This document shows, piece by piece, positions 9,531-60,706 of a DNA stretch of 64,000 bases (its first letter is position 1; every line of letters begins with the position of its first letter). The notes below the pieces were generated by a model that worked only from the letters and a program-made list of their open reading frames with translations, made no database searches and had not been told where the DNA came from. The position numbers were made by a program, and so were the translations under genes. Source of the stretch: Candidatus Aenigmatarchaeota archaeon (GTDB taxonomy: Archaea > Aenigmatarchaeota > Aenigmatarchaeia > PWEA01); the NCBI GenBank assembly GCA_046539305.1, contig JBKHHE010000002.1:35928-99927 (forward strand), read 5' to 3'.

Positions 9531-9669
9531 GCCGGGGTAGCGAAGCCTGGCCCACCGCGCCAGCTTGGAGACCTGAACAGAAAGCTGGTGTGCGTTATAA
9601 GATTGATGTGGTCTCGGACCACATCCTATGGCGAAGCACGCGTGGGTTCAAATCCCACCCCCGGCGCCA
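9531..9669 (+). tRNA. tRNA-Ser (anticodon GGA, class II); about 12-nt insertion after position 37 and an enlarged variable region holding a 9-bp hairpin. CCA is encoded
   Basis: Acceptor GCCGGGG/CCCCGGC; anticodon arm CCAGC-TTGGAGA...GCTGG; T-arm GTGGG-TTCAAAT-CCCAC; G discriminator then CCA. Confidence 0.65.
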
Positions 9670-11144: not shown

Positions 11145-12104
11145 ATGCCGGAACCCAGCAGACCAAAGAAAGGCTCGACAGGAGTTTGGCCCAGGAAGCG
11201 GGCCAGTCGTATCTATCCCTCGCTCCATTCCTGGATCCAGACGGACGACTGCAAGCCTCTCGCGTTTGCGGGATACAAGGCCGGGATGACGCAGGTCATT
11301 ATGAAGGACCTGAGGAAAACATCCCCCACCAAAAACCAGCTCATTTCTGTTCCTGTGACTGTTTTCGACATACCACCTCTCTTTCTTCTTGGCGCGAGAT
11401 CCTACAAAGAAACGAATGAAGGGCTGGAGGTTCTGGAAGATATAGGAGCGGAGGCAGACGAGATTCCAAAGGACCTGCGGGAGAGGATCCATTTCGCCGA
11501 GAAAAGCAAACTGGAGAAAGAAGGCGATGAAATAAGGCTTATAGTATGCACACAACCGCGGAGAAGCGGTCTGGGCAAGAAGAGACCGGAAGTTTTCGAG
11601 GTCCCCCTTGGTGGAAACTTCAAGGAACAGAAGGAGTTCGTGGAGGAAAATGTGGGTGGGGAAATAGAGGTGGAGGACGTTTTTGAAGAAGGCGAGTTCC
11701 TGGACGCTGTGGCCATCACGAAAGGAAAGGGATACGAGGGACCTGTGAAGAGATACGGTGCGAAGATAGACAGAAGCAAGGACGAGTATCCAAGAAGGAT
11801 AGGGAGCATGGGGGCGAGGGGTCAGGGGAGGGTGCTTCACACAGCCCCACAGCCCGGACAGGACGGCTTTCACCGAAGAACTGATGAATGTAAGCACTTC
11901 CTTGGTACCTTCGACGCGGAGGAGGTGAATCCGGAGGACGGTTTCAAAAACTACGGGATCGTGAGGGAAAACTCTATGCTAGTAAAGGGAAGTACTCCGG
12001 GACCGAAAAAAAGGTTGGTCCTTTTCAGAAAAAGCATAAAGAACAGGAAGAAGCTTCCTGTGGAGATAAAAAACATAAAGAAATCAAGTCAGCAGGGTGC
12101 ATGA
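11145..12104 (+). CDS. rpl3: 50S ribosomal protein L3
   Basis: L3 homology; first gene of the conserved L3-L4-L23-L2 block; TTTTTAAAGG box about 40 bp upstream and GGAG RBS. Confidence 0.92.
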   Translation: MPEPSRPKKGSTGVWPRKRASRIYPSLHSWIQTDDCKPLAFAGYKAGMTQVIMKDLRKTSPTKNQLISVPVTVFDIPPLFLLGARSYKETNEGLEVLEDIGAEADEIPKDLRERIHFAEKSKLEKEGDEIRLIVCTQPRRSGLGKKRPEVFEVPLGGNFKEQKEFVEENVGGEIEVEDVFEEGEFLDAVAITKGKGYEGPVKRYGAKIDRSKDEYPRRIGSMGARGQGRVLHTAPQPGQDGFHRRTDECKHFLGTFDAEEVNPEDGFKNYGIVRENSMLVKGSTPGPKKRLVLFRKSIKNRKKLPVEIKNIKKSSQQGA

Positions 12105-12903
12105 TATGGTGAAAATACTGTCTTTGGACGGCGAGGAAACGAGGGAGAGAAAGCTTCCTGAAGTTTTTCAGGAGAACTACAGACCGGACCTGATAAAGAA
12201 GGCGGTAGAATACTACCAGTCCAGAAAGAGGCAGAGTTACGGAGCGGACAGAAAAGCAGGCATGAAGACGTCAGCACACTACGAAGGCTCCAGACACGTC
12301 GCCCCGAGCGCACAGATGATGAACCGGGAGATGTCAAGGATGCCGAGAGAGCACGGCGACACGGCACGTCGCTTCCGCGCCCTGCTTGCCCCACACGCTG
12401 TAGGGGGAATGAAGGCGCATCCCCCGAAGGCCGAGAAAAACTGGGAAAAGGATATGAACAACAAGGAGAGGAAGAAGGCCACGAGAAGCGCGATAGCTTC
12501 AACCGCGAAAAGGAAAGCAGTGGAGGAAAGGAACCACAGGTTCGAAGGAGAGCTCCCGATAGTGGTGGAAGACGGGCTCCAGGAGCTAGAAAAGACATCG
12601 GAGGTGGAGGAGTTTTTGAAAAAAATAGGACTTGGGGAGGATCTGCAGAGAGCCAGGGAAAGGAAGGTCAGAGGTGGAAAAGGCAAGAGGAGGGGAAGGA
12701 AATACAAGACGAAAAAATCCGTGCTGATAGTTGTAGCGGAGGACAAAGGTATAAAAAGATCCGCGAGAAATATACCCGGCGTCGAAGTCGTGGAAGTAGA
12801 AAACTTAAACTCCGAGGTGCTTTCTCCGGGGGCACACGGTACCAGACTGACAGTCTACACGGAGTCCGCGTTGAATGAAATCGATGGGAGGTGGAGTGCG
12901 TGA
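12097..12903 (+). CDS. rpl4: 50S ribosomal protein L4
   Basis: L4 homology and operon position. Confidence 0.9.
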   Translation: MHDMVKILSLDGEETRERKLPEVFQENYRPDLIKKAVEYYQSRKRQSYGADRKAGMKTSAHYEGSRHVAPSAQMMNREMSRMPREHGDTARRFRALLAPHAVGGMKAHPPKAEKNWEKDMNNKERKKATRSAIASTAKRKAVEERNHRFEGELPIVVEDGLQELEKTSEVEEFLKKIGLGEDLQRARERKVRGGKGKRRGRKYKTKKSVLIVVAEDKGIKRSARNIPGVEVVEVENLNSEVLSPGAHGTRLTVYTESALNEIDGRWSA

Positions 12904-13163
12904 AAAGGCCCATGGACGTGATAAAGTATCCCCACCTCACCGAGAAGTCCGTGGATATGGTGGAGAAGGAGAACAAGCTCGTATTTATAGTGGAGGACAA
13001 GACGAATAAAAATCAGATAAGATGGGCGGTGGAGGAGGAATTCGACGTAACCGTTGTAAAGGTAAATACCTTAAACACCATGAAAGGAAACAAAAAGGCC
13101 GTGGTAAAACTTTCAGAAGATGACAATGCGATTGATATAGCCACGCGCCTTGGAATGCTGTGA
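12891..13163 (+). CDS. rpl23: 50S ribosomal protein L23
   Basis: L23 homology and operon position. Confidence 0.88.
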   Translation: MECVKRPMDVIKYPHLTEKSVDMVEKENKLVFIVEDKTNKNQIRWAVEEEFDVTVVKVNTLNTMKGNKKAVVKLSEDDNAIDIATRLGML

Positions 13164-13169
13164 TGATAG

Positions 13170-13862
13170 ATGCCTAAAAGGACGAGATCTCAAAGGATGG
13201 GAAGCAGCAGAAACGTGGGGACCCCCAGCCACAGGTATTCCAGGGAAGTGGAATTTAACGACATCGAGGGCGAAGTGGTGGATATTATACACGACCCCGC
13301 CCGATCGGCGCCCCTAGCCAAAGTCAAGCTGGAGGACGGAAAGGAGAGGTATATAATAGCTCCGGAGGGCCTTGAAACCGGGGACGTTATAAAATGTGGA
13401 ATTTCCGCTCCAATAGAGCCGGGAAACAGGCTGAAGCTTGCGGAAATCCCGGAGGGAGTCCCTGTACACTCCATCGAGACAAATCCCGGTGAGGGCGGTA
13501 AACTGGTCAGGGCTTCGGGAACCTATGCAACGGTAAAAATGCATGACCTAGATAAGACCGTAGTAGAACTTCCCTCCGGTGAATCAAAGGAACTCAACCC
13601 GGCGTGCCAGGCGACTGTCGGAGCGGTAGCCGGAGGGGGGAGAAAGGAGAAACCATACGTAAAGGCGGGAAACAAATACAAGGCCAAGAAGGCCCGCGGA
13701 AAGAAGTATCCCAAGACTTCTGCCGTAGCGATGAACGCTGTAGACCATCCGTTTGGAGGGTCTACTAAACCCGGAAAACCGAAAACAACAAAGTCGACTG
13801 CGCCACCCGGCCAGAAGGCGGGGTCCTTTGGCGCGAAATCTTCCGGTAAAAAAGAGGACTGA
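13170..13862 (+). CDS. rpl2: 50S ribosomal protein L2
   Basis: L2 homology (HPFGG motif near C-terminus). Confidence 0.92.
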   Translation: MPKRTRSQRMGSSRNVGTPSHRYSREVEFNDIEGEVVDIIHDPARSAPLAKVKLEDGKERYIIAPEGLETGDVIKCGISAPIEPGNRLKLAEIPEGVPVHSIETNPGEGGKLVRASGTYATVKMHDLDKTVVELPSGESKELNPACQATVGAVAGGGRKEKPYVKAGNKYKAKKARGKKYPKTSAVAMNAVDHPFGGSTKPGKPKTTKSTAPPGQKAGSFGAKSSGKKED

Positions 13863-13879
13863 AGTAAAAACGTGTTATA

Positions 13880-14260
13880 ATGGCAAAGGACTTTCAGTTC
13901 AGGGGAAAGACAGTTGAAGAGTTGAGAGAGATGGACCTTACCGAGTTCGCGGAGCTGCTAGATGCAAGGAAAAGAAGGAGTCTGGTGAGGGGACTCACGG
14001 ACGCGCAAAAGAAGCTCATGGAGAAAATACGAGAAGGAGAGGACTACGTCAAGACACACGCCAGGGACATGGTAATCCTTCCTGAAATGGTAGGGACAAC
14101 CATAGGCGTACACAACGGCAAGGACTTCGTGGATATTGATATAGAGCCGGATATGATAGGTCACTATCTGGGCGAGTTCGCGGAGACCAGAAAGAAGGTC
14201 GAGCATTCAGCACCTGGACTCGGAGCTACAAGAACGTCCAAACATGTACCCCTGAAGTAA
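13880..14260 (+). CDS. rps19: 30S ribosomal protein S19
   Basis: S19 homology. Confidence 0.9.
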
Positions 14261-14274
14261 AGAGGTAGATTAAT

Positions 14275-14664
14275 ATGGTAGGTTACCCGGTCGAAGTTGA
14301 AGAAAGGGACGTCAAGGCAGCCGGCACAGACCTGAGAATATCCAGGAAGAAGGCGCAGAAAATATGCGAGGTAATAAACAACAAAAAAATGAAGCTGGAA
14401 AGGGCCCAGGAGTTCGTGCAGAACCTAATAGACGGCGAGGAAACTATAGGCAAGAAAACCTATAAAAAAGCAGCTGAGGGCATTCTGGAGGTTCTCAGGA
14501 ATGCGGAGAACAATGCCGAGTTCAAAGGTATCCCGGTAGAAAAACTACGTGTAAAAAGCATAACTACGGAGCCGGGAAGAACGCTGCGTAGGAGGAGGCG
14601 TAGGAGGGACTTTGGAAACAGGCTCAAAAATTCAAACGTAAAGGTCGTGCTGGAGAGAGGATAG
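14275..14664 (+). CDS. rpl22: 50S ribosomal protein L22
   Basis: L22 homology and operon position. Confidence 0.85.
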   Translation: MVGYPVEVEERDVKAAGTDLRISRKKAQKICEVINNKKMKLERAQEFVQNLIDGEETIGKKTYKKAAEGILEVLRNAENNAEFKGIPVEKLRVKSITTEPGRTLRRRRRRRDFGNRLKNSNVKVVLERG

Positions 14665-14665
14665 G

Positions 14666-15475
14666 ATGACGCTTGAAAAACAGTTCATAGATAAAGGGAT
14701 AAAGAAAGGTCAGCTCGAGGAGTTTTTTGAGGAGGAGTATCCAAGGGCTGGATATACGGGATGTGATATAAGAAGGACTCCCACGGGAGTCAAGATAACG
14801 ATACACGCGGACAAGCCCGGCCTCATAATTGGAAGGGGAGGAGGGAGAATAGACGAAGTTACCCAAAAACTGGGGGAAGAGTTTGGGTTTGAAGACCCGC
14901 AGATAGACGTTCAGGAGATAGAGAAGCCGGAACTCGACGCAAAGATAATGGCAAAGGAAATAAAGAACGCCATAGAGAGTGGCGCGAACTACAAGAGGGT
15001 GGCAGGCGGCGTGCTGAGGAGTATAATGGAGAGGGGCGCCGCGGGAGCGGAGATATCTATATCCGGAAAACTGTCGGGGGCAAGGGGCAGGACGGTCAGG
15101 TTCCAAGACGGGTATATGAAAAGCTGCGGTGAGCCCGCGAAGAAGCTTGTCGACAAGGCGGTAGAACATGCCAAAACAAAGCCAGGGACCATAGGAGTCA
15201 AGATGAAGATAATGGAGAGGAAGCCGGATGAAAAGGAGGAAAGGGAAGAGGAAGAAGAGGTCGAGGAGGAGGAATTCGAGCTCACGGAGGAAAAGGTAAA
15301 CGAGATAGTAGATTCATCCATAAACGATGCAAAGGAAAAAATCGAAGAAATAGACGAACACCTGGACATCGAGGACTACAAAACAATACTGGAATATGAA
15401 ATGGACGACAAGAAGAGGAAGGGTATGACGAAGTTCCTGAAAAGAAAGGTGGAAGAAAAGGAGGAGTCTGATTAA
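14666..15475 (+). CDS. rps3: 30S ribosomal protein S3, with a ~60-aa acidic C-terminal extension
   Basis: KH-domain S3 core (IGRGGGRIDEV); poly-E tail. Confidence 0.9.
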   Translation: MTLEKQFIDKGIKKGQLEEFFEEEYPRAGYTGCDIRRTPTGVKITIHADKPGLIIGRGGGRIDEVTQKLGEEFGFEDPQIDVQEIEKPELDAKIMAKEIKNAIESGANYKRVAGGVLRSIMERGAAGAEISISGKLSGARGRTVRFQDGYMKSCGEPAKKLVDKAVEHAKTKPGTIGVKMKIMERKPDEKEEREEEEEVEEEEFELTEEKVNEIVDSSINDAKEKIEEIDEHLDIEDYKTILEYEMDDKKRKGMTKFLKRKVEEKEESD

Positions 15476-15476
15476 A

Positions 15477-15674
15477 ATGGCAATACTGAAGGCGGAAGAA
15501 ATAGAGGAAATGGGAGAGGAGGAGCTGGAGAAGAAACTGGATGAACTGGAGCTGGAGCTGGCAAAGGAGAAGGCGCAAGTAAAGATAGGAGGAGTCCCGG
15601 AAAACGCCGGGAGGATGAACGAAATGAAAAGGACTATAGCAAGGATAAAAACAAAGCTTTCCAAAACGAGGTGA
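15477..15674 (+). CDS. rpl29: 50S ribosomal protein L29
   Basis: L29 homology and operon position. Confidence 0.85.
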   Translation: MAILKAEEIEEMGEEELEKKLDELELELAKEKAQVKIGGVPENAGRMNEMKRTIARIKTKLSKTR

Positions 15675-15680
15675 AAATAG

Positions 15681-15986
15681 ATCGCTAACTGCCCCGACTG
15701 TGGACTGCCGGAAGAGCTCTGCGTCTGTGATACGATAGCGAAGGAAGAGGAAAAAATAGAGGTCAGGAAAACTAGGAGAAGCTACGGAAAGGAACTCACT
15801 GTATTAGAAAACGTTTCGGAGGACATGAATCCCGAAGAACTAGCAAAGAACCTCAAGAAAAAGCTAGCATGTGGAGGAACCTACAAAGAAGGGAGGATCG
15901 AGCTCCAGGGGGACCACCTGAGGAAAATAAAGGATCTCCTGGTCGCAGAGGGGTTTCCGGAAAACAAGATCGAAATAAAGGATTGA
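15681..15986 (+). CDS. Translation initiation factor SUI1 (aSUI1/eIF1); no in-frame ATG, GTG or TTG start (see finding)
   Basis: Hand translation IANCPDCGLPEELCVCDTIAKEEEKIEVRKTRRSYGKELTVLEN...ACGGTYKEGRIELQGDH; conserved position between L29 and Rpp29. Confidence 0.6.
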   Translation: MANCPDCGLPEELCVCDTIAKEEEKIEVRKTRRSYGKELTVLENVSEDMNPEELAKNLKKKLACGGTYKEGRIELQGDHLRKIKDLLVAEGFPENKIEIKD

Positions 15987-15987
15987 G

Positions 15988-16266
15988 ATGAGAGATGCCA
16001 AGAACCTCCCCCGACACGAGCTTATAGGGCTCGAAGTGAGGGTGATGGAAAGTGAAAACGAAGTGGAGGAAGGTATACAGGGGAAGGTAATAGACGAGGG
16101 AAAAGGTGTTTTAAAAGTTGAGCACGAAGATGATGAGAAAACCCTTGCCAAGAAAGGGCGGGTCTTCAACTTCAAGCTTCCCTCCAACGAGGAAGTGAAG
16201 GTGGAAGGCGACGTCCTGGAAGGGAGACCCGAGGAAAGGATAAAGAAAAAATTGAGGAAATGGTGA
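15988..16266 (+). CDS. rnp1: RNase P protein subunit Rpp29 (Pop4)
   Basis: Strong similarity to archaeal Rpp29 (HELIGLEV...KGRVFNFKLP...GRPEERIKKKL); canonical position before S17. Confidence 0.75.
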   Translation: MRDAKNLPRHELIGLEVRVMESENEVEEGIQGKVIDEGKGVLKVEHEDDEKTLAKKGRVFNFKLPSNEEVKVEGDVLEGRPEERIKKKLRKW

Positions 16267-16270
16267 AAAA

Positions 16271-16588
16271 ATGGCTCTAGGCCTCGACGTAAAAGCTCCA
16301 GAAAAGGAGTGTGAAGACGAAAACTGTCCGTTCCATGGACAGGTATCGGTCAGAGGTAGAACTTTCGAAGGCGTGGTCAAGTCGAAGAGCGAAAAGACCG
16401 TGACGGTGCAGTGGCAGTACTACAAATACGTGCCCAAATATGAAAGGTATATGAGGAAAAACACAAAGATTATGAGCCATCTGCCTCCATGCCTCGAGAT
16501 AGAGGAAGGAGATAAAGTCAAGATAGGTGAAACCAGACCACTTTCAAAGGGTAAAAGCTTCGTAGTGCTCGAAAAGGTGGGTGATTAA
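16271..16588 (+). CDS. rps17: 30S ribosomal protein S17
   Basis: S17 homology and operon position. Confidence 0.88.
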   Translation: MALGLDVKAPEKECEDENCPFHGQVSVRGRTFEGVVKSKSEKTVTVQWQYYKYVPKYERYMRKNTKIMSHLPPCLEIEEGDKVKIGETRPLSKGKSFVVLEKVGD

Positions 16589-16987
16589 ATGAAGGCTGTA
16601 GGAAGCAATATCACCAGAGGGATTGGACATGGGGCAAAACTGGAATGTGCAGATAACACAGGAGCAAAGATGTTGAAAGTCACTTCCATAATCAACTACA
16701 AGGGAACCAGAGCCAGGCAACCCAGAGCTGGCGTAGGCAACATCGTCAGGTGCTCGGTAATAAAGGGTTCCCCGGAAATGAAGGAGGAGACGCCGCTCGC
16801 GGTAATTATACGACAAAGAAAGGAGTGGAGGAGGCCCGACGGCAGGAGGATAAAGTTCAATGACAACGCGGCGGTTCTAATAAACGAAAGAAACGAGCCC
16901 CGTGGAAACGAGATAAAGGGTGCCGTTGCAAAGGAAGTGGTCGAAAGGTTCCCCGAAATAGGAAAGGTGGCCAGAACCGTGGTATGA
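16589..16987 (+). CDS. rpl14: 50S ribosomal protein L14
   Basis: L14 homology. Confidence 0.9.
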   Translation: MKAVGSNITRGIGHGAKLECADNTGAKMLKVTSIINYKGTRARQPRAGVGNIVRCSVIKGSPEMKEETPLAVIIRQRKEWRRPDGRRIKFNDNAAVLINERNEPRGNEIKGAVAKEVVERFPEIGKVARTVV

Positions 16988-17511
16988 TGGTTAGAAGCAA
17001 AAAACCAAAGAAACAGAGGAAGGAAGTCTCAAGGACTCCCCTGCACAGGAGACAAAGGAAAGTATCCGCTCTCCTGGAAAGGAGTCTACGAGAGGAGTTC
17101 GACAGAAGAAACCTTCCTCTGAGAAGTGGAGACGAAGTGAGGATTATGAAAGGAGATTTCAAAGGGACGGAGGACGAAGTCCATGAGGTAGATTTGAGAA
17201 AGCAAAAAGTTACCCTGGAAGACCTGAATGTGGAAAAGGTTGACGGCACCGAGGTCAGGCCAAAGATAGATCCGTCCAACCTGATGATACTGGATCCGGA
17301 CCTTTCCGATAAAATGAGGAGCAAGATAGTTGAAAGGGCCGGAGGAGAGGTTTCAGAGGAGTTCACAGAGGCAGAAAGCGAAGAGGAAGAAGAGGAGGAA
17401 GAGGGAAAGAAGGAGGAGGGCTTTAGATGTGAGATATGTGGTGACGTCTTCGACTCAAAGAGGGGACTAAATATCCACAAAGGACAAAAACATCCTGAAT
17501 ACATGAAATGA
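16984..17511 (+). CDS. rpl24: 50S ribosomal protein L24 (KOW) with an acidic linker and a C-terminal C2H2 zinc finger
   Basis: L24 core (GDEVRIMKGDFKG); C-terminal FRCEICGDVFDSKRGLNIHKGQKH after a poly-E stretch. Confidence 0.85.
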   Translation: MMVRSKKPKKQRKEVSRTPLHRRQRKVSALLERSLREEFDRRNLPLRSGDEVRIMKGDFKGTEDEVHEVDLRKQKVTLEDLNVEKVDGTEVRPKIDPSNLMILDPDLSDKMRSKIVERAGGEVSEEFTEAESEEEEEEEEGKKEEGFRCEICGDVFDSKRGLNIHKGQKHPEYMK

Positions 17512-18233
17512 GTGATAAAATGTCAAAACACCAGAAGGCACTGTCTTCGCCGAAATCGTATCCAATAGGCAGAAAAGAAAGGCCCTGGACCTTGAAACCC
17601 AGAGCCGGTCCACACCCAAAGGATGACTCCATACCTCTGGGGATAGTGGTAAGGGACATGCTGGGGTACGTGGACAATGTAAGCGAGGTCAAGGAGGTAC
17701 TCGAAAAGGGCCTGTGCAAGGTAGACGGGAAGGTTGTCAGGGATCACAGACTCCCCCTCGGAACGTTCGACTCCCTGCAGCTGGGGGATGAGTATTTTAG
17801 ACTGATGCCATCTGAGGAGGGATTTGAACTTGTTGGGGTGGATGAAGCCGACTCCGGCAAAAAAGTATGCAGAGTCGAAGACAAGAAAACGGTCAAAGGT
17901 GGAAAGATCCAGCTCAACCTGAACGACGGTAAGAATATCGTGGTCGACAAGAAAAGGCTTAAGAAACTCCCTACCGGCTCATCGCTCGTCTTAAGCCTAC
18001 CCGAACTCGAGATAGAGGAAGTAATTGAATTTGAAGAAGGACAGGAAGCTATGGTAACAGGAGGAAAGAACAGAGGAAAGGTGGCGGAGCTCCAGGAGAC
18101 AAAAGAGCTCAAAGGAAGCAAGGAAAACAGAGTCGTGGTCTCAAGCAACGGCGACGAACTCGACCTCCCCGAAAAACTTGTCTTCCCCGTAAACGAGGAA
18201 ATGATAAAACTTCGGGATAACCATGACGAATGA
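17508..18233 (+). CDS. rps4e: 30S ribosomal protein S4e
   Basis: S4e homology. Confidence 0.9.
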   Translation: MSDKMSKHQKALSSPKSYPIGRKERPWTLKPRAGPHPKDDSIPLGIVVRDMLGYVDNVSEVKEVLEKGLCKVDGKVVRDHRLPLGTFDSLQLGDEYFRLMPSEEGFELVGVDEADSGKKVCRVEDKKTVKGGKIQLNLNDGKNIVVDKKRLKKLPTGSSLVLSLPELEIEEVIEFEEGQEAMVTGGKNRGKVAELQETKELKGSKENRVVVSSNGDELDLPEKLVFPVNEEMIKLRDNHDE

Positions 18234-18738
18234 AAACCCAATGAAGGAAATAAAGTTGGAGAAGGTCGTCCTAAACATAGGGGCAGGAGGTCCCGGTGAG
18301 AAACTTGAGAAGGCGAAAAACCTGCTCGAAAGTCTCACAGGAAGGGGGGCAAAGATCACGAAAGCCAGGGGCAGAAGCGCTTTCGGCGTCTCCAAAGGAA
18401 GGGATATAGGCGCAATGGTCACTCTAAGGGAAAATGAAGCCGAAAGGTTCCTTGAAAGGGTCTTTGAGGCCAAAGAAAATAGGATAAGCAGGGACGTCTT
18501 TGACCAGCAGGGAAACCTTTCCCTGGGCATAAAGGAACATATTGACCTTCCGGGAACCGACTACGACCCCGAGGTTGGTATCTTCGGGATGGACGTGGCC
18601 GTAAAACTTGAAAGGCCTGGCTTCAGAATTAAGAAGAAGAAGGTCTCCAAAGAAATAGGCAAGGACCATAAAATTTCCAAGGACGAGGCGATAAGCTTCA
18701 TCCAAAAAAACTTCGATGTCGAAGTAGTTGGTGATTAA
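18223..18738 (+). CDS. rpl5: 50S ribosomal protein L5
   Basis: L5 homology. Confidence 0.9.
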
Positions 18739-18739
18739 C

Positions 18740-18871
18740 TTGGCTAAAAAGGAAGTTCCAAAATGCAGGCGATGTGGAAACAGGAAGGGAGTGATAAGAA
18801 AATACGGCCTCTACATATGCAGGCAATGTTTTAGAGAGGTCGCCGAGGAGCTGGGTTTCGAAAAATACTAG
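18740..18871 (+). CDS. rps14: 30S ribosomal protein S14 (zinc-binding type), TTG start
   Basis: Hand translation (M)[42 protein letters not shown]; below the ORF-track size cutoff. Confidence 0.7.
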
Positions 18872-18880
18872 GTGACTTAA

Positions 18881-19267
18881 ATGAGGCATTCAATACTTGC
18901 GGACTGTATGTCGGCGCTCAAAAACGCAGAAGATGTGGGCAAGGATAGATGTACCGTTCAGGCATCGGGACTTGTCACGGAGATTTTGAAAACCCTCCAG
19001 GACAAGGGCTATATCGGTGAGTTCGAGTTGATAGAGGACAATAGAGGCGGAAAGCTAAGGATAAAAATGATAGGCAAGATAAACGACTGCAATATAATAA
19101 GGCCACATTTTTCCGTGAAGAAAGATAACTTCGAGGAATGGGAAAAGAGGTTCCTCCCGGCAAAGGGAATGGGCTACCTCCTGGTAAGCACTTCCCAAGG
19201 AATTAAAACCCACGAAGAGGCGAAGGAAGAGGAAATGGGCGGAAAGCTCATGGCCTACGTATACTGA
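18881..19267 (+). CDS. rps8: 30S ribosomal protein S8
   Basis: S8 homology. Confidence 0.9.
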   Translation: MRHSILADCMSALKNAEDVGKDRCTVQASGLVTEILKTLQDKGYIGEFELIEDNRGGKLRIKMIGKINDCNIIRPHFSVKKDNFEEWEKRFLPAKGMGYLLVSTSQGIKTHEEAKEEEMGGKLMAYVY

Positions 19268-19275
19268 GGATAATT

Positions 19276-19809
19276 ATGAAAAGAGAAGTCGAGATCCCCG
19301 AGGATGTTGAAATCAAGTTAGAAGGTAAAAGGGTCAGAATCAAGAGTGGGGATGAAGAGGTAGTAAAGAAGCTTGACCACCCCCTCCTGGATCTGGAGGT
19401 CGAGGACGACAGAATTATTATAAAGTCTTTAAAGGAAAACAAGAAGGTTGACAGCGTGTCCAGAACATTCAAGTCTAAGATAAAGAACGCGATAAAGGGG
19501 GTCCACGAAGGATTCGATTACAGGCTCAAGGTTATATACAGGCATTTCCCGATGGAAGTAAGTGTGAAAGGGGACAGGCTGGTGGTATCCAACTTCCTGG
19601 GTGAGAAGGCGGACAGGGAAGCCGAGATACTAGAGGGTGTGAATGTACAGGTAGAGGACGGAGAAATACTTGTCAGAGGTGCCGACAAGGAAAGGGTGGG
19701 CCAGACTGCCGCCAACATTGAAGGAAGGATGCAGGCACCCTCGGCCAAGGATAGGAGGGTGTTTGAGGACGGTATATATATAGTCGAAAAACCCGAAATG
19801 GAGGGCTAG
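19276..19809 (+). CDS. rpl6: 50S ribosomal protein L6
   Basis: L6 homology. Confidence 0.9.
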   Translation: MKREVEIPEDVEIKLEGKRVRIKSGDEEVVKKLDHPLLDLEVEDDRIIIKSLKENKKVDSVSRTFKSKIKNAIKGVHEGFDYRLKVIYRHFPMEVSVKGDRLVVSNFLGEKADREAEILEGVNVQVEDGEILVRGADKERVGQTAANIEGRMQAPSAKDRRVFEDGIYIVEKPEMEG

Positions 19810-19812
19810 ACC

Positions 19813-20127
19813 ATGTCAAAAGACAAGTTCAAAAGACAGAACTCGACCAGAAAGGTAAAGGACTCCTGGAGAAGACCCAAGGGCCACCATTCGTCCCTTA
19901 GAAAGGGTATAAAGGGGGCCGGAAAGAAACCTTCTCCGGGCTACGGTTCACCTGATAAAGGTATGCACCCTTCGGGATATTACGAGGTGCTCGTGAGGAA
20001 CCCGGATGATCTCGATAAAATAGATCAGGAGAAGGAAGCCGCAAGGATAAGCTCGAGGGTTGGAGAGAAGAAAAAAGAAAAGATAAGAGAAAAAGCAGAG
20101 GAAATGGATATAAAAGTTTTGAACTGA
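19813..20127 (+). CDS. rpl32e: 50S ribosomal protein L32e
   Basis: L32e homology. Confidence 0.85.
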   Translation: MSKDKFKRQNSTRKVKDSWRRPKGHHSSLRKGIKGAGKKPSPGYGSPDKGMHPSGYYEVLVRNPDDLDKIDQEKEAARISSRVGEKKKEKIREKAEEMDIKVLN

Positions 20128-20136
20128 GGTTTAAAG

Positions 20137-20298
20137 ATGTTCCTGAGATTTGACGAAAAGAAATGCCCGATCTGTGGAACCGTGGGCAAGGACTCCAGTA
20201 TAAAGGAGCTAAACCAGTGCCCAAGATGTGGTACAAGGTTCAATCAGTTCGGAATCATAGCCTCTTACAAAAAGGACAGAAAGCTCCAATGGACTTGA
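20137..20298 (+). CDS. Small zinc-ribbon protein, 53 aa, inserted between L32e and L19e
   Basis: Hand translation MFLRFDEKKCPICGTVGKDSSIKELNQCPRCGTRFNQFGIIASYKKDRKLQWT; it fills the gap exactly. Confidence 0.4.
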   Translation: MFLRFDEKKCPICGTVGKDSSIKELNQCPRCGTRFNQFGIIASYKKDRKLQWT

Positions 20299-20299
20299 G

Positions 20300-20764
20300 G
20301 TGGAAATGATGGATCTTTCAACTCAAAAAGAGATGGCAGCCGACGTCCTGAGTTGCGGAAAGAACAAAGTCTGGATAAACCCGGAAAGACAGGATGACGT
20401 AGCCGACGCGATAACAAAGGCAGACGTAAGGAGACTTATACAGAAGGGAGCGATAAAAAAGAAGTCAACGGACGGACAGTCACGAGGAAGGGTAAGAAAC
20501 AAAAAAATACAGGAGGAGAAAGGGAGAAGAAGCGGGCACGGGTCCAAAAAAGGAAATAATCAAACTGAGAAGAAGAAATGGATGTCCAAAGTGAGGGCCC
20601 AGAGAAAGCTGCTCAAGGAACTGCGGGACAAAGGTGATATAGATAGCTCCACTTACAGGGACCTTTATCAAAAGTCCAAGGGTGGAAGGTTTAATTCAAA
20701 AAAGCACCTCATGGAATATATGAAAAAGGGAGGCCTGATTGAAAAAGGTGATGAAATTGAGTAA
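20300..20764 (+). CDS. rpl19e: 50S ribosomal protein L19e
   Basis: L19e homology. Confidence 0.88.
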   Translation: MEMMDLSTQKEMAADVLSCGKNKVWINPERQDDVADAITKADVRRLIQKGAIKKKSTDGQSRGRVRNKKIQEEKGRRSGHGSKKGNNQTEKKKWMSKVRAQRKLLKELRDKGDIDSSTYRDLYQKSKGGRFNSKKHLMEYMKKGGLIEKGDEIE

Positions 20765-21326
20765 GGGAACAGGAAAGAAGAGAAGAAGGGAGAAAAAAAC
20801 TGACTACCGCCAGAGACTGAAGCTTCTGAAAAGCGAGGTGCCCAGGCTTGTAGTGAGGAAGAGCCTCAACAATACTATAGTCCAGCTGGTAAAATGGAAT
20901 GAAGACGGTGATAAGGTAATAGCCCAGGCGGAGGCACAGGAGCTGCCTAACTTGGGGTGGAAGGGCCACACGGGCAATATACCCGCTGCATACCTTGCCG
21001 GGCATCTTCTCGGCGAAAGGGCCGAAGAGAAAGGTGTAAAGGAATGTGTGCTGGACTTGGGCCTCCAGGAAAGCACGCAAGGTAACAGGATATATGCCGC
21101 CGCAAAAGGTGCCAGGGATGCGAATCTTGTGGTTCCGGTGGGTGAAGAGATGCTACCCCCGGAAAGCAGGGTAAGGGGGAAACACATAGAGGAATACGCA
21201 TCGGGGATGTCTTCCGATGAAAAAAAGGAACATTTTTCAAGTCTGATGGAAAGGGGTCTAGACCCGGAAAATCTTTCCGATAACTTTCAAGGAGTAAAGA
21301 AGAAAATAGAAAAGGAAGGTGAATGA
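20739..21326 (+). CDS. rpl18: 50S ribosomal protein L18 (L5e family)
   Basis: L18 homology (RLVVRKSLNNTIVQL). Confidence 0.88.
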   Translation: MKKVMKLSKGTGKKRRREKKTDYRQRLKLLKSEVPRLVVRKSLNNTIVQLVKWNEDGDKVIAQAEAQELPNLGWKGHTGNIPAAYLAGHLLGERAEEKGVKECVLDLGLQESTQGNRIYAAAKGARDANLVVPVGEEMLPPESRVRGKHIEEYASGMSSDEKKEHFSSLMERGLDPENLSDNFQGVKKKIEKEGE

Positions 21327-22035
21327 AATGGCCGAAGAACAGACGAAGGATTGGACACCACATACCGAACTGGGAAAGGAAGTGGTTGACGGTAAGATAA
21401 CGTCAGTAGAGGAGATCTTCGAGCAGGGAAAGAAAATAATGGAACCCGAAATAGTAGATCTCCTCGTTCCCAACCTGGACCATGAGCTGATCCTCATAGG
21501 AGGTTCTCCTGGGAAAGGAGGTGGAATGAGAAGGACGCCGGCGAAGAGAACCGCGAAAATGCACAAAAGCGGGCGGAAATACAAGATGACAGCCTTTGCC
21601 GTCGTAGGCAACAGTAACGGATATGTAGGAGTTGGTGAAGGGCAGGCCACCGGATCTGGCGCTTTCAGAACCGCAATACAGAAGGCAATAAAAAATGCGA
21701 AGCTTAATATCATACCGGTGCGCAGGGGATGTGGTTCGTGGGAGTGCGAGTGCGCCTCCCCCCATTCTCTGCCCACAGAAATAGAGGGCAGCGAGGGTAG
21801 TATTAGGGTAGTTCTAAAACCGGCCCCAAGAGGTGTGGGCCTGGTGGTATCTGATGAAGTCAAGAAATTTATGAAGCTGGCCGGTGTCGAAGACTGCTGG
21901 ATAAAGACATTCGGCGAGACGAGAACAAGAACAAATCTGATAAAGGCCGTTTACAACGCATTCAACAACCTCAACCACCTCAGGATGGAAGAAGATTTCA
22001 AAGAAAAAACAGGAACGGTAATGGGTGAGATCTGA
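21319..22035 (+). CDS. rps5: 30S ribosomal protein S5
   Basis: S5 homology. Confidence 0.9.
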   Translation: MNEMAEEQTKDWTPHTELGKEVVDGKITSVEEIFEQGKKIMEPEIVDLLVPNLDHELILIGGSPGKGGGMRRTPAKRTAKMHKSGRKYKMTAFAVVGNSNGYVGVGEGQATGSGAFRTAIQKAIKNAKLNIIPVRRGCGSWECECASPHSLPTEIEGSEGSIRVVLKPAPRGVGLVVSDEVKKFMKLAGVEDCWIKTFGETRTRTNLIKAVYNAFNNLNHLRMEEDFKEKTGTVMGEI

Positions 22036-32732: not shown

Positions 32733-32852
32733 AAGGCTGGCGGCCAAAGCGGAGGGGCAACTCCCGTACCCATCCGAACACGGAAGAAAAGTCCTCCAGC
32801 GATTTGGTCAGTATCCTCAATCCGAGGAGAACTCCAGGACGCTGCCAGCCGC
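32733..32852 (+). rRNA. rrf: 5S ribosomal RNA
   Basis: GGCUGGCGGCCAAAGCGGAGGGGCAACUCCCGUACCCAUCCGAACACGGAAG...GCUGCCAGCC closes a terminal helix; matches the archaeal 5S consensus (CCGAAC, GGAAGUUAAG-like, AGCG). Confidence 0.75.
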
Positions 32853-32914: not shown

Positions 32915-33012
32915 GCCGCGATGGTGTAGCGGCTCAACTCTCGAAGAGAGGGGGCCAAGCATAGAGCCCTGTCGAGGCTCTGACCCGGGTTCAAATCCCG
33001 GTCGCGGCGCCA
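32915..33012 (+). tRNA. tRNA-Asp (anticodon GTC) with about a 22-nt insertion in the D-loop region. CCA is encoded
   Basis: Acceptor GCCGCGA/TCGCGGC; anticodon arm GAGCC-CTGTCGA-GGCTC; T-arm CCGGG-TTCAAAT-CCCGG. Confidence 0.65.
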
Positions 33013-33050: not shown

Positions 33051-33191
33051 GGGCCCGTAGCTCAGTCTGGGAGAGCACTGGGCTTTTAAGAACACTTTGG
33101 AAAAACGTTCATGGAAAAATATTTTGATGGACCTTTTTCGAAAAGGTTCTAAGACACCCAGGAGTCGCGGGTTCAAATCCCGTCGGGCCCA
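33051..33191 (+). tRNA. tRNA-Lys (anticodon TTT) with about a 67-nt intron at 37/38
   Basis: GGGCCCG-TA-GCTC-AGTCTGGGA-GAGC-A-CTGGG-CTTTTA[intron]A-CCCAG-GAGTC-GCGGG-TTCAAAT-CCCGT-CGGGCCC-A. Confidence 0.75.
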
Positions 33192-41086: not shown

Positions 41087-41208
41087 GGGCCTGTAGCTCA
41101 GTCTGGGAGAGCGCTAGGCTCTTAACTTTTAAGAGCGCGTAATGGGACCGGTCGGTCCTTATGACGAAAGAAACCTAGAAGTCGCGGGTTCAAATCCCGT
41201 CGGGCCCA
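41087..41208 (+). tRNA. tRNA-Lys (anticodon CTT) with about a 48-nt intron at 37/38
   Basis: GGGCCTG-TA-GCTC-AGTCTGGGA-GAGC-G-CTAGG-CTCTTA[intron]A-CCTAG-AAGTC-GCGGG-TTCAAAT-CCCGT-CGGGCCC-A. Confidence 0.75.
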
Positions 41209-60590: not shown

Positions 60591-60706
60591 TGGGCCTGCG
60601 CGGATTTGAACCGCGGATCTCCACCTCTTTTCTACGAAGTAGGAAAGTTCGAAATCCCCGATTTCGTATCGTGAAGGTGGCGTCATAGCCGCTAGACCAC
60701 AGGCCC
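60591..60706 (-). tRNA. tRNA-Val (anticodon CAC) with about a 42-nt intron at 37/38
   Basis: Reverse complement gives GGGCCTG-TG-GTCT-AGCGGCTA-TGAC-G-CCACC-TTCACG[intron]A-GGTGG-AGATC-CGCGG-TTCAAAT-CCGCG-CAGGCCC-A. Confidence 0.7.

What the first reader, a model, noticed from the sequence alone, without database searches (positions are those of the whole stretch)
17300..17511. Ribosomal protein L24 carries a poly-Glu linker and a C-terminal C2H2 zinc finger
Archaeal L24 is about 120 aa. Here the KOW/L24 core is followed by SEEFTEAESEEEEEEEEGKKEEG and then FRCEICGDVFDSKRGLNIHKGQKH, a textbook C2H2 finger with about 55 extra residues. C2H2 fingers are rare in archaea, and a fusion to a universal r-protein in the core operon is unusual. 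It could be a lineage-specific ribosome decoration or an extra-ribosomal nucleic-acid-binding function.
Basis: seen in the sequence. Interest (0 to 1): 0.55.

Follow-up and report, generated by a model that had tools for sequence, protein, structure and literature searches.

The report
Ribosomal protein uL24 with zinc finger
In one branch of the tiny uncultured Aenigmatarchaeota, the universal ribosomal protein uL24, which sits at the mouth of the ribosome's protein exit tunnel, carries a conserved extra arm ending in a classical C2H2 zinc finger, a real and apparently undescribed ribosome decoration whose binding partner is unknown.

Summary
ORF 16984-17511 (+) encodes a 175-aa uL24. It has a normal archaeal core (residues 5-119), a 26-residue charged linker, one classical C2H2 finger (C149, C152, H165, H170) and a short tail, PEYMK.

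It is not a frameshift or assembly error. More than 30 independent assemblies carry the same architecture. The finger is more conserved than the L24 core (79% vs 63% pairwise identity; pN 0.095 vs 0.18). The gene is packed tightly between uL14 and eS4.

All carriers form one clade of Aenigmatarchaeota (200/200 bootstraps). Sister lineages and every solved archaeal ribosome have a uL24 of about 120 aa.

The poly-Glu run is not the functional feature. A non-halophilic subclade has a Lys/Glu linker of about the same length, and there uS3 carries the same finger as well. The same finger also sits on charged linkers at the ends of unrelated proteins in hypersaline archaea.

Most likely reading: a finger held on a spacer arm at the tunnel-exit rim, acting as a binding adaptor. 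The partner is unknown, and the near-neutral charge argues against typical nucleic-acid binding. I found no prior description. Verdict: a new variant of a known kind (lineage-specific ribosomal-protein extension), of moderate interest.

The parts
16984..17511 (+). Complete uL24 (L24P) gene with extension, 175 aa. NCBI starts it at the second Met (16987), giving 174 aa.
   Evidence: A 100% identical protein, P0001, is annotated '50S ribosomal protein L24, Candidatus Aenigmatarchaeota archaeon'. The source is GCA_046545755.1, contig JBKGZB010000004.1.
16996..17340 (+). uL24 core (basic N-terminal arm, KOW barrel, C-terminal helix), residues 5-119
   Evidence: TIGR01080 E 1e-34, PF16906 E 5e-19. 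AlphaFold pLDDT above 90. Foldseek TM 0.86-0.88 to P. furiosus, T. kodakarensis and H. marismortui uL24.
17341..17418 (+). Charged spacer, residues 120-145 (GGEVSEEFTEAESEEEEEEEEGKKEE), net charge about -13
   Evidence: Low-confidence or disordered in AlphaFold (pLDDT below 50 at residues 129-143). The sequence is poorly conserved (49% identity) but length is kept at 23-26 aa in 18 of 21 orthologs. It is a Lys/Glu mixture of 21-27 aa in clade B.
17419..17493 (+). Single classical C2H2 zinc finger, residues 146-170. Predicted ligands are C149, C152, H165 and H170.
   Evidence: zf-C2H2_4 E 3.7e-4 in context and 3.7e-5 alone. The finger profile matches solved C2H2 fingers at E 6.5e-16 to 1e-9. 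AlphaFold gives a beta-beta-alpha unit, pLDDT 81-84 in context and 89.7 alone. Foldseek top hits are all C2H2 fingers at rmsd 0.4-1.3 A. Mean pairwise identity 79%, pN 0.095.
17494..17511 (+). C-terminal tail PEYMK plus the TGA stop. The motif H-[PK]-x-[YFH]-x-K is specific to the uL24 fingers.
   Evidence: Conserved in clades A and B (PEYMK, PDYMKS, KNYMKGE, KEFK and others) but absent after the finger on uS3, DsbA-like and nucleotidyltransferase hosts.
16589..16987 (+). uL14 gene. Its stop overlaps the uL24 start (GTATGATGG).
17508..18233 (+). eS4 gene. The start is either ATG 17508, overlapping the uL24 stop (ATGA), or ATG 17520 as NCBI calls it. Either way there is no room for a separate finger ORF.
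14666..15475 (+). uS3 gene of the same operon, also extended: an acidic linker (from nt 15221) plus a conserved helical domain of about 60 aa with no family match (from nt 15275). In clade B this position holds a C2H2 finger instead.

Best explanation
This is a genuine C-terminal extension of ribosomal protein uL24 that arose once and has been kept by selection in one clade of Aenigmatarchaeota (DPANN archaea). Its order is: L24 core, then a highly charged spacer of about 21-30 residues, then one classical C2H2 zinc finger, then a short conserved aromatic/Lys tail. SHOWN: the reading frame is real; the finger is under stronger purifying selection than the core; spacer length is conserved while its composition follows the proteome; all carriers are monophyletic; and the finger has the classical C2H2 sequence pattern and predicted beta-beta-alpha fold. 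[quoted passage not shown] The finger would therefore be held on an arm of roughly 35 A (if helical) to 90 A (if extended) at the exit-tunnel rim of the assembled 50S subunit. There it most probably works as a tethered binding adaptor that holds or recruits a partner at the exit site. A protein partner is more likely than nucleic acid. It is less likely to be an rRNA-embedded structural element or a DNA-binding regulator. The stated confidence is for the whole statement, including the inferred adaptor role; the part marked SHOWN I hold at about 0.97.
For: Reality of the fusion: 21 of 21 close orthologs, 7 GTDB species and 13 JGI metagenome contigs from different samples share the architecture. 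The gene abuts uL14 and eS4. Selection: finger identity is 0.79, against 0.63 for the core and 0.49 for the linker. Pooled pN is 0.095 (finger), 0.18 (core) and 0.24 (linker), with synonymous sites saturated. Single origin: carriers are monophyletic in 200 of 200 bootstraps on a uL14 + uL24-core + eS4 + uL5 tree that excludes the finger. Finger-less Aenigmatarchaeota are sister to them, and no free-standing finger ORF lies next to L24 in any of 73 finger-less loci. Spacer as a ruler: clade A linkers are net -6 to -15 and clade B linkers -1 to +5, matching a proteome-wide shift of 8-12 charge units per 100 aa, yet length stays at 21-30 residues. AlphaFold gives the linker low confidence and both flanking domains high confidence. 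Solvent-exposed C-terminus: solved archaeal uL24 chains end at query residue about 121, and other archaea tolerate varied low-complexity tails at this point. [quoted passage not shown] In eukaryotes the uL24 C-terminus is itself a regulatory handle at the ribosome-translocon junction (PMC10937380). Adaptor rather than nucleic-acid clamp: finger net charge is -2 to +2. Surface positions D-S-[KE]-R-G-L-[KN]-[IV] are conserved across unrelated host proteins, which suggests a common ligand. On every host the finger is terminal and attached by a charged linker.
Against: No partner has been identified and nothing has been tested experimentally. Zinc binding is only predicted. I could not dock the model onto a ribosome, so the reach estimates come from residue counts alone. 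In clade B the same finger sits on uS3 (30S head, mRNA-entry side), far from the exit tunnel, so any partner cannot be specific to the exit site. A single finger falls below Pfam's gathering score. Single C2H2 fingers can bind RNA despite modest charge, so contact with rRNA on the same ribosome is not excluded. The clade A uL24 finger resembles halophile fingers on other hosts more than it resembles the clade B uL24 finger, so a secondary replacement of the finger cannot be ruled out entirely.
Confidence: 0.58

Rival explanations
1. Structural extension acting on the same ribosome. The finger folds back and binds 23S rRNA or a neighbouring exit-site protein, as eukaryote- or mitochondrion-specific r-protein extensions do. 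It may compensate for clade-specific rRNA or r-protein changes.
For: Lineage-specific r-protein extensions usually contact rRNA (established knowledge). The conserved linker length fits a fixed target distance on the particle. uS3 in the same clade is also extended, which suggests general remodelling of the ribosome surface. C2H2 fingers can bind RNA, as in TFIIIA-5S rRNA (established knowledge).
Against: The linker is strongly acidic in clade A (net up to -15) and the finger is near neutral; both are unusual for rRNA-contacting extensions, which are basic. AlphaFold gives no confident packing of the finger on the core. The same finger occurs on non-ribosomal hosts, so it is not tailored to rRNA. 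There is no significant match to the dsRNA-binding C2H2 subtype: zf-C2H2_jaz was not reported for uL24 and scored E 0.13-0.18 for the uS3 fingers.
Confidence: 0.25
2. Extra-ribosomal (moonlighting) function. Free uL24 uses the finger to bind DNA or mRNA, for example as an operon autoregulator or transcription factor.
For: Classical C2H2 fingers are best known as DNA-binding units, and the best fold and profile matches are DNA-binding fingers. Some r-proteins autoregulate their own operons (established knowledge).
Against: A single near-neutral finger is a poor sequence-specific DNA binder (established knowledge that tandem fingers or basic flanks are needed). uL24 is not a known autoregulator. 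The same module on uS3 in clade B argues for a role on the ribosome. The recognition-helix positions (-1 S, +2 R/Q, +3 G, +6 I/V) are conserved across unrelated hosts instead of varying with the target.
Confidence: 0.07
3. A passenger domain without a specific ligand. It could be a zinc reservoir, a solubility or stability tag, or a neutral remnant of a mobile finger cassette that happened to land on exposed termini of abundant proteins.
For: The finger is promiscuous and always terminal. Zinc-binding r-proteins have been proposed as zinc stores in bacteria (established knowledge).
Against: pN is about half that of the essential L24 core, and non-ligand surface residues are nearly invariant. 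The fusion was retained through deep divergence (47% identity) and a shift from non-halophile-type to halophile-type proteomes. A uL24-specific C-terminal tail motif is conserved.
Confidence: 0.06
4. Artefact. A frameshift, a misassembly or a chimeric contig joins L24 to an unrelated small zinc-finger ORF.
For: None beyond the prior that MAG assemblies contain errors.
Against: The same in-frame architecture is found in more than 30 independently assembled contigs from soda-lake, hydrothermal and other metagenomes at 47-83% identity. There is no stop after the core in any of them. The finger evolves under codon-level purifying selection. The flanking genes abut the ORF.
Confidence: 0.01

Closest known systems
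Archaeal L24P / eukaryotic L26 (uL24; TIGR01080, PF16906)
   Same: The core sequence, the fold (TM 0.86-0.88 to P. furiosus, T. kodakarensis and H. marismortui uL24) and the operon position between uL14 and eS4.
   Different: All solved archaeal uL24 chains are 118-128 aa and stop where this protein's spacer begins. None carries a folded C-terminal domain.
Eukaryotic RPL26/uL24 C-terminal extension (UFMylation site K134 at the ribosome-translocon junction)
   Same: It is a C-terminal extension of uL24 beside the exit tunnel that is used as a handle by trans-acting machinery (PMC10937380). This is a functional analogy for the position only.
   Different: The eukaryotic extension is a short basic helix or tail modified by UFM1. 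It is not a zinc finger on a charged spacer, and there is no sequence relationship beyond the core.
Classical (TFIIIA/Krueppel-type) C2H2 zinc finger (PF00096, PF13894)
   Same: The exact consensus F-x-C-x2-C-x3-F-x5-L-x2-H-x4-H, a predicted beta-beta-alpha fold, profile matches to solved fingers (E down to 6.5e-16 summed; single fingers about 3e-4), and rmsd 0.4-1.3 A to solved fingers.
   Different: It is a single finger, not a tandem array. Its net charge is near neutral. It is fused to ribosomal proteins. Its recognition-helix positions are conserved across hosts. It lies below Pfam's gathering score as a lone finger.
Prokaryotic Ros/MucR-type C2H2 zinc finger
   Same: It is a prokaryotic Cys2His2 zinc-binding domain. 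Ros homologues have been reported in bacteria and archaea (PMC6562870).
   Different: No ROS_MUCR match was reported even at E<=10. From memory, Ros uses a shorter Cys-His spacing and a larger globular domain of about 58 aa. The spacing and size here are of the eukaryote-like classical type.
Zinc-ribbon ribosomal proteins (uS14, eS27, eL37, eL40, eL43 and others)
   Same: They are zinc-binding modules that are integral parts of archaeal ribosomal proteins (established knowledge). uS14 with CxxC motifs lies in this operon at 18728-18871.
   Different: Those are C4 ribbons or treble clefs buried in rRNA and ancestral to archaea and eukaryotes. This one is a beta-beta-alpha C2H2 finger on a flexible arm and is confined to one clade.
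Ribosomal stalk proteins (aP1/P1/P2, bL12)
   Same: The architecture is analogous: a ribosome-anchored domain, a flexible charged or acidic hinge, and a small conserved C-terminal element that captures trans-acting factors (established knowledge; analogy only).
   Different: The location differs (GTPase centre versus tunnel exit), the terminal element differs, and there is no homology.

Membership tests
uL24 (archaeal L24P / eukaryotic L26) | Match to the equivalog model above its curated cutoff | tested here: met
   TIGR01080 scores 119.2 bits against a cutoff of 47.65. PF16906 scores 68.9 bits against 28.8.
uL24 (archaeal L24P / eukaryotic L26) | KOW-barrel fold superposable on uL24 in solved ribosomes | tested here: met
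   AlphaFold core pLDDT above 90. Foldseek E 2e-15 and TM (target) 0.88 to 9qf4_BU and 6skf_BX.
uL24 (archaeal L24P / eukaryotic L26) | Conserved gene position uL14 - uL24 - eS4 - uL5 in the spc-like operon | tested here: met
uL24 (archaeal L24P / eukaryotic L26) | Physical incorporation of the extended protein into 50S subunits | not testable with these tools
   It is the only uL24 gene seen in the operon, so incorporation is expected but has not been shown.
Classical C2H2 zinc finger | Consensus (F/Y)-x-C-x2-5-C-x3-(F/Y)-x5-hydrophobic-x2-H-x3-5-H | tested here: met
   F147-R-C149-EI-C152-GDV-F156-DSKRG-L162-NI-H165-KGQK-H170. C, C, H, H, F and L are invariant or nearly so in all carriers.
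Classical C2H2 zinc finger | Pfam model match at or above the gathering score | tested here: inconclusive
   zf-C2H2_4 scores 21.4 bits in context and 24.5 alone, against GA 27. zf-C2H2 scores 15.3-18.4 against 25.2. E-values are significant, and 21 of 21 carriers hit while 0 of 5 non-carriers do. The finger profile finds 3585 proteins at E<=1e-3, led by multi-finger proteins, and solved fingers at E 1e-9 to 6.5e-16.
Classical C2H2 zinc finger | Beta-beta-alpha fold | tested here: met
   AlphaFold gives strands at residues 147-148 and 155-156 and a helix at 159-169, with pLDDT 81-84. The finger alone scores pLDDT 89.7. The top Foldseek hits are nearly all C2H2 fingers, TMq 0.64-0.90 and rmsd 0.4-1.3 A in the top ten; E-values are not significant because the domain is only 30 aa.
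Classical C2H2 zinc finger | Tetrahedral Zn(II) coordination by 2 Cys + 2 His | not testable with these tools
   This needs metal analysis or a structure of the recombinant tail.
Ros/MucR prokaryotic zinc finger | Match to the ROS_MUCR family, with a short Cys-His spacing and an extended globular domain | tested here: not met
   No ROS_MUCR hit was listed at E<=10. The spacing is C-x2-C-x12-H-x4-H, and the whole domain is about 25-30 aa.
dsRNA-binding U1/JAZ-type C2H2 finger (PF12171) | Significant match to zf-C2H2_jaz | tested here: not met
   It was not reported for the uL24 finger at E<=10. It scored only E 0.13-0.18 for the clade B uS3 fingers.

The most novel reading that the evidence does not exclude
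The finger is a shared docking tag. In these archaea one type of C2H2 finger on a charged spacer is attached to the exit-tunnel protein uL24 and, in clade B, to the mRNA-entry protein uS3. In hypersaline archaea it is also attached to the predicted cytoplasmic end of membrane-anchored DsbA-like proteins, to a nucleotidyltransferase and to coiled-coil proteins. One common, still unknown partner would recognise the conserved D-S-[KE]-R-G-L-[KN]-[IV]-H face and so be recruited to ribosomes and to these other machines. That would be a previously unrecognised way of wiring factors to the archaeal ribosome, for example to couple it to the membrane or translocon or to a quality-control factor.
Probability: 0.17. 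Interest if true: 0.75.

Novelty: new variant of a known kind. Interest (0 to 1): 0.52.

Why it matters
Ribosomal proteins of archaea are usually treated as invariant markers; uL24 and uS3 are among the 14 proteins concatenated for the phylogeny in PMC9258230. Here a universal exit-tunnel protein has kept a folded, eukaryote-style C2H2 finger on a spacer arm through a deep divergence, and a sister branch has put the same finger on uS3. If the finger recruits a partner, it marks a new lineage-specific contact point for co-translational processes in DPANN archaea, which have reduced genomes and depend on hosts. It also shows that classical C2H2 fingers circulate in archaea as portable terminal modules. 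In practical terms, annotation pipelines name the protein plain 'L24' and miss the domain.

Tried and rejected
Poly-Glu words crowded the 8000-candidate limit, so even the L24 fusions themselves were not scored. It yielded only a few free-standing small C2H2 proteins (P0027-P0036). The context of the closest one, P0032, was a 1.2-kb contig with nothing informative.
The top 150 hits were dominated by multi-finger, presumably eukaryotic, proteins whose scores sum across fingers. This confirms the C2H2 class but not the origin. A few short archaeal-looking relatives turned up (P0099, P0114, P0067).
3. The uS3 tail domain of clade A: no match in Pfam, NCBIfam or the PDB, and no hit in the large protein search. 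It remains unidentified.
4. A viral-contig scan with the finger gave only 7 weak loci, so nothing supports a viral origin.
5. The first bootstrap run timed out. I repeated it with a faster distance routine.
6. The window holds no homolog of the nucleotidyltransferase, DsbA-like or coiled-coil hosts. Only the L24 finger itself matched them.
7. The window contains no 23S rRNA, so clade-specific rRNA elements near uL24 could not be examined.
8. Rejected readings: a Ros/MucR-type finger, a dsRNA-binding JAZ-type finger, and the idea that the poly-Glu run is itself the functional element.
9. No paper in the searchable library describes a uL24 or uS3 C2H2 fusion.

Full report
**1. The observation**

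Window 16984..17511 (+) is a 175-aa ORF. Residues 5-119 are an ordinary archaeal uL24. TIGR01080 scores 119 bits against a cutoff of 47.65, and PF16906 scores 68.9 bits against 28.8. After the core comes GGEVSEEFTEAESEEEEEEEEGKKEE (residues 120-145), then GFRCEICGDVFDSKRGLNIHKGQKH (146-170), then PEYMK.

The finger fits the textbook pattern F-x-C-x2-C-x3-F-x5-L-x2-H-x4-H. It hits zf-C2H2_4 at E 3.7e-4 in context and 3.7e-5 alone, both below Pfam's gathering score of 27 bits.

**2. It is not an artefact**

- A 100% identical protein is annotated '50S ribosomal protein L24' in an Aenigmatarchaeota MAG. The source is GCA_046545755.1, contig JBKGZB010000004.1.
- Twenty further proteins, 56-73% identical and 157-185 aa long, all have the linker and the motif GFKCEICGDxFDSKRGLNIHKGKxHPxYMK.
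- Seven GTDB species representatives and thirteen JGI metagenome contigs carry the same in-frame architecture.
- All 21 carriers in alignment A1 hit zf-C2H2_4 individually, and none of the five finger-less homologs does.
- The uL24 start overlaps the uL14 stop. The eS4 start is either ATG 17508, overlapping the uL24 stop, or ATG 17520 as NCBI calls it. No space is left for a separate ORF.

**3. Selection**

| Segment | Mean pairwise identity (21 carriers) | Pooled pN (clade A DNA) |
|---|---|---|
| Finger | 0.79 | 0.095 |
| Core | 0.63 | 0.18 |
| Linker | 0.49 | 0.24 |

Synonymous sites are saturated (pS 0.7-1.0). The finger is therefore under stronger purifying selection than the essential core. 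Linker length is 23-26 residues in 18 of 21 sequences, although the linker sequence itself drifts.

**4. Fold**

AlphaFold with the ortholog alignment gives the core pLDDT above 90, the linker (residues 129-143) below 50, and a beta-beta-alpha unit at 147-170 with pLDDT 81-84. The finger alone reaches pLDDT 89.7.

The core superposes on uL24 of P. furiosus, T. kodakarensis and H. marismortui at TM 0.86-0.88. The finger model's best Foldseek matches are nearly all classical C2H2 fingers: an R2 retrotransposon finger at rmsd 0.6 A over 29 residues, and ZNF692, SALL4 and BCL11A at 0.4-1.3 A. The E-values are not significant because the domain has only 30 residues.

A profile of the finger matches solved C2H2 fingers by sequence (Aart 6.5e-16, SALL3 5.9e-10, ZBTB24 1e-9). 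In 1.8 billion representative proteins it finds 3585 hits at E<=1e-3, led by multi-finger proteins. There is no ROS_MUCR match and no significant JAZ-type match.

**5. Distribution and origin**

Among the 80 best GTDB loci, only L001-L007 have the finger. At least ten other Aenigmatarchaeota species, and all other archaea listed, have a uL24 of 114-165 aa with no Cys/His motif. All solved archaeal uL24 chains are 118-128 aa and end at query residue about 121.

I built a neighbour-joining tree from uL14, the uL24 core only, eS4 and uL5 (622 columns, 36 DPANN taxa). All carriers fall in one clade in 200 of 200 bootstraps. That clade has two subclades, each also supported 200/200, and its sisters are finger-less Aenigmatarchaeota. 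A tail HMM searched against all six-frame ORFs of the 80 loci found no free-standing finger gene beside L24 in finger-less relatives. The simplest reading is a single acquisition in the common ancestor, retained since.

One caveat applies. The clade A finger is closer in sequence to halophile fingers on other hosts than to the clade B uL24 finger. However, the identical position, the similar spacer length and a uL24-specific terminal motif, H-[PK]-x-[YFH]-x-K, are shared by both subclades, which supports orthology.

**6. The poly-Glu run is a composition effect**

Clade A includes the window. It also includes MAGs named T1Sed10 and B1Sed10 and contigs named SL_8KL. B1Sed10 and T1Sed are the high-salinity soda-lake sediment datasets of PMC6146748, which reports Aenigmarchaeota MAGs.

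The neighbouring r-proteins of clade A are 8-12 charge units per 100 aa more acidic than those of clade B or the finger-less relatives. Clade B includes a contig from the metagenome that also yielded a Thermococcus MAG labelled HyVt. Its linkers are Lys/Glu mixtures such as GKFEVKKVKEEKKEVEKKEEVK, with net charge -1 to +5 and length 21-27. Clade A linkers are net -6 to -15 and 25-30 residues long. What is conserved is a highly charged spacer of roughly constant length, not acidity.

**7. The module is portable**

- In clade B the uS3 gene, about 2 kb upstream in the same operon, also ends in a Lys/Glu linker plus a C2H2 finger (EFKCPYCGKVYDKERSLKIHIGQKH). This is seen in L006, L007, L088, L098, L106, L110 and L119.
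- In clade A, including the window (14666-15475), uS3 instead carries an acidic linker plus a conserved helical domain of about 60 aa with no match in Pfam, NCBIfam or the PDB.
- In JGI metagenomes, mostly hypersaline, the same finger (FDSERGLKIHxGxxH) sits at the C-terminus of NTP_transf_2 nucleotidyltransferase-like proteins of about 453 aa.
- It also sits at the N-terminus of membrane-anchored Thioredoxin_4/DsbA-like proteins, ahead of an acidic linker and a hydrophobic, presumably membrane-spanning, segment.
- It is found as well at the ends of coiled-coil proteins of about 550 aa, in an HNH-endonuclease protein and in small proteins.
- Non-ligand positions D-S-[KE]-R-G-L-[KN]-[IV] are conserved across these hosts.
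- A viral-contig scan gave only seven weak matches.

**8. Mechanism**

What is shown: a folded C2H2 finger under selection, separated from the uL24 core by a spacer of constrained length.

What follows from established structure:
- uL24 is part of the inner ring of the exit tunnel, with eL19, uL23 and uL29 (PMC7005732).
- It lies next to the signal sequence and SRP in targeting complexes (PMC4737761).
- In eukaryotes its C-terminus is the UFMylation site through which 60S subunits are released from translocons (PMC10937380).

What is inferred: a spacer of about 25 residues spans roughly 35 A if helical and up to about 90 A if extended. That is enough to sweep the exit-site surface.

Three features fit a finger held away from the rRNA surface that binds a partner, more likely protein than nucleic acid:
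- The arm is acidic in clade A and of the ER/K type in clade B.
- The finger appears at the ends of unrelated proteins.

The presence of the same finger on uS3 in clade B means that any partner is not specific to the exit site. The main rival is binding to rRNA or a neighbouring r-protein on the same ribosome. I could not test this, because no ribosome coordinates and no clade 23S rRNA were available.

**9. Novelty**

Full-text searches found no description of a C2H2 finger on uL24 or uS3. I searched uL24 with C2H2; Aenigmarchaeota with ribosomal protein and zinc finger; C2H2 with archaea and DPANN; archaeal r-protein extensions; and haloarchaeal C2H2. PMC9258230 uses L24 and S3 only as phylogenetic markers. 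Work on haloarchaeal zinc fingers concerns small C(P)XCG proteins, and in its introduction mentions Ros-type regulators.

I therefore rate this as a new variant of a known kind: a lineage-specific ribosomal-protein extension built from a known domain class. Interest is moderate. The feature is real, ancient and located at a functionally important site. However, the organisms are uncultured and the partner is unknown.

Noticed in passing
window 14666-15475 (+); tail from nt 15221, domain from nt 15275: uS3 is 269 aa. After the normal KH/S3_C core it has an acidic linker (KPDEKEEREEEEEVEEEE) and a conserved helical domain of about 60 aa (FELTEEKVNEIVDSSI...DYKTILEYEMDDKKRKGMTKFLKRK). The domain is shared by the six other clade A loci where uS3 could be read (L001-L003, L005, L082, L084), with 25 invariant positions. 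It has no match in Pfam, NCBIfam or the PDB, and the large protein search found nothing.
   Followed up: partly
L006 434-1171; L007 643-1425; also L088, L098, L106, L110, L119: In the non-halophilic sister subclade (clade B), uS3 ends in a Lys/Glu linker plus a C2H2 finger of the same type as the one on uL24. These organisms therefore carry the finger on two ribosomal proteins, one on each subunit.
   Followed up: yes
L092, L100, L102; L093-L096, L099, L103-L105, L107, L108, L112; L114, L120, L123, L125; L118: The same finger (FDSERGLKIHxGxxH) occurs on charged linkers at the termini of several kinds of protein, mostly from hypersaline metagenomes: NTP_transf_2 nucleotidyltransferase-like proteins, membrane-anchored Thioredoxin_4/DsbA-like proteins (N-terminal finger, presumably cytoplasmic), coiled-coil proteins of about 550 aa, and an HNH-endonuclease protein. 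Whether any of them share a genome with uL24-ZF is unknown.
   Followed up: partly
window 20137-20298 (+): A 53-aa ORF with two CxxCG motifs (a C4 zinc-ribbon-like pattern; only weak Pfam and NCBIfam hits) lies between eL32 (19813-20127) and eL19 (20300-20764). Weak tail-HMM hits mark a short ORF at the equivalent position in the loci checked (L001, L002, L003, L005, L006, L007) and in at least one finger-less Aenigmatarchaeota locus, L012; only the L006 and L007 sequences were read and show the CxxCG pairs.
   Followed up: partly
window 17508 vs 17520: The eS4 start is ambiguous. ATG 17508 overlaps the uL24 stop (ATGA) and gives 241 aa. NCBI's call corresponds to ATG 17520 and gives 237 aa.
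   Followed up: no
window 9531-9666, 33051-33191, 41087-41208, 60591-60706; 32736-32850: Four Rfam tRNA matches span 116-141 nt and are not called by ARAGORN, which fits intron-containing archaeal tRNAs. A 5S rRNA gene stands alone, followed by tRNA-Asp at 32938-33012. No 16S or 23S rRNA lies in the window.
   Followed up: no
L017, L026, L050, L051, L054, L078 (Acidilobaceae, Thermoprotei and a Calypsonella MAG); L021, L041, L065; P0024-P0026: Other archaeal uL24s carry unrelated low-complexity C-terminal tails (Ala/Glu/Gly-rich or Lys-rich, up to about 45 extra residues) with no Cys/His motif. The uL24 C-terminus therefore tolerates extensions in general.
   Followed up: partly
window 12000-22000: The r-protein operon strand has a strong purine excess (GC skew up to +0.31, AT skew up to +0.43). 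This is presumably due to its Glu/Lys/Arg-rich coding content.
   Followed up: no
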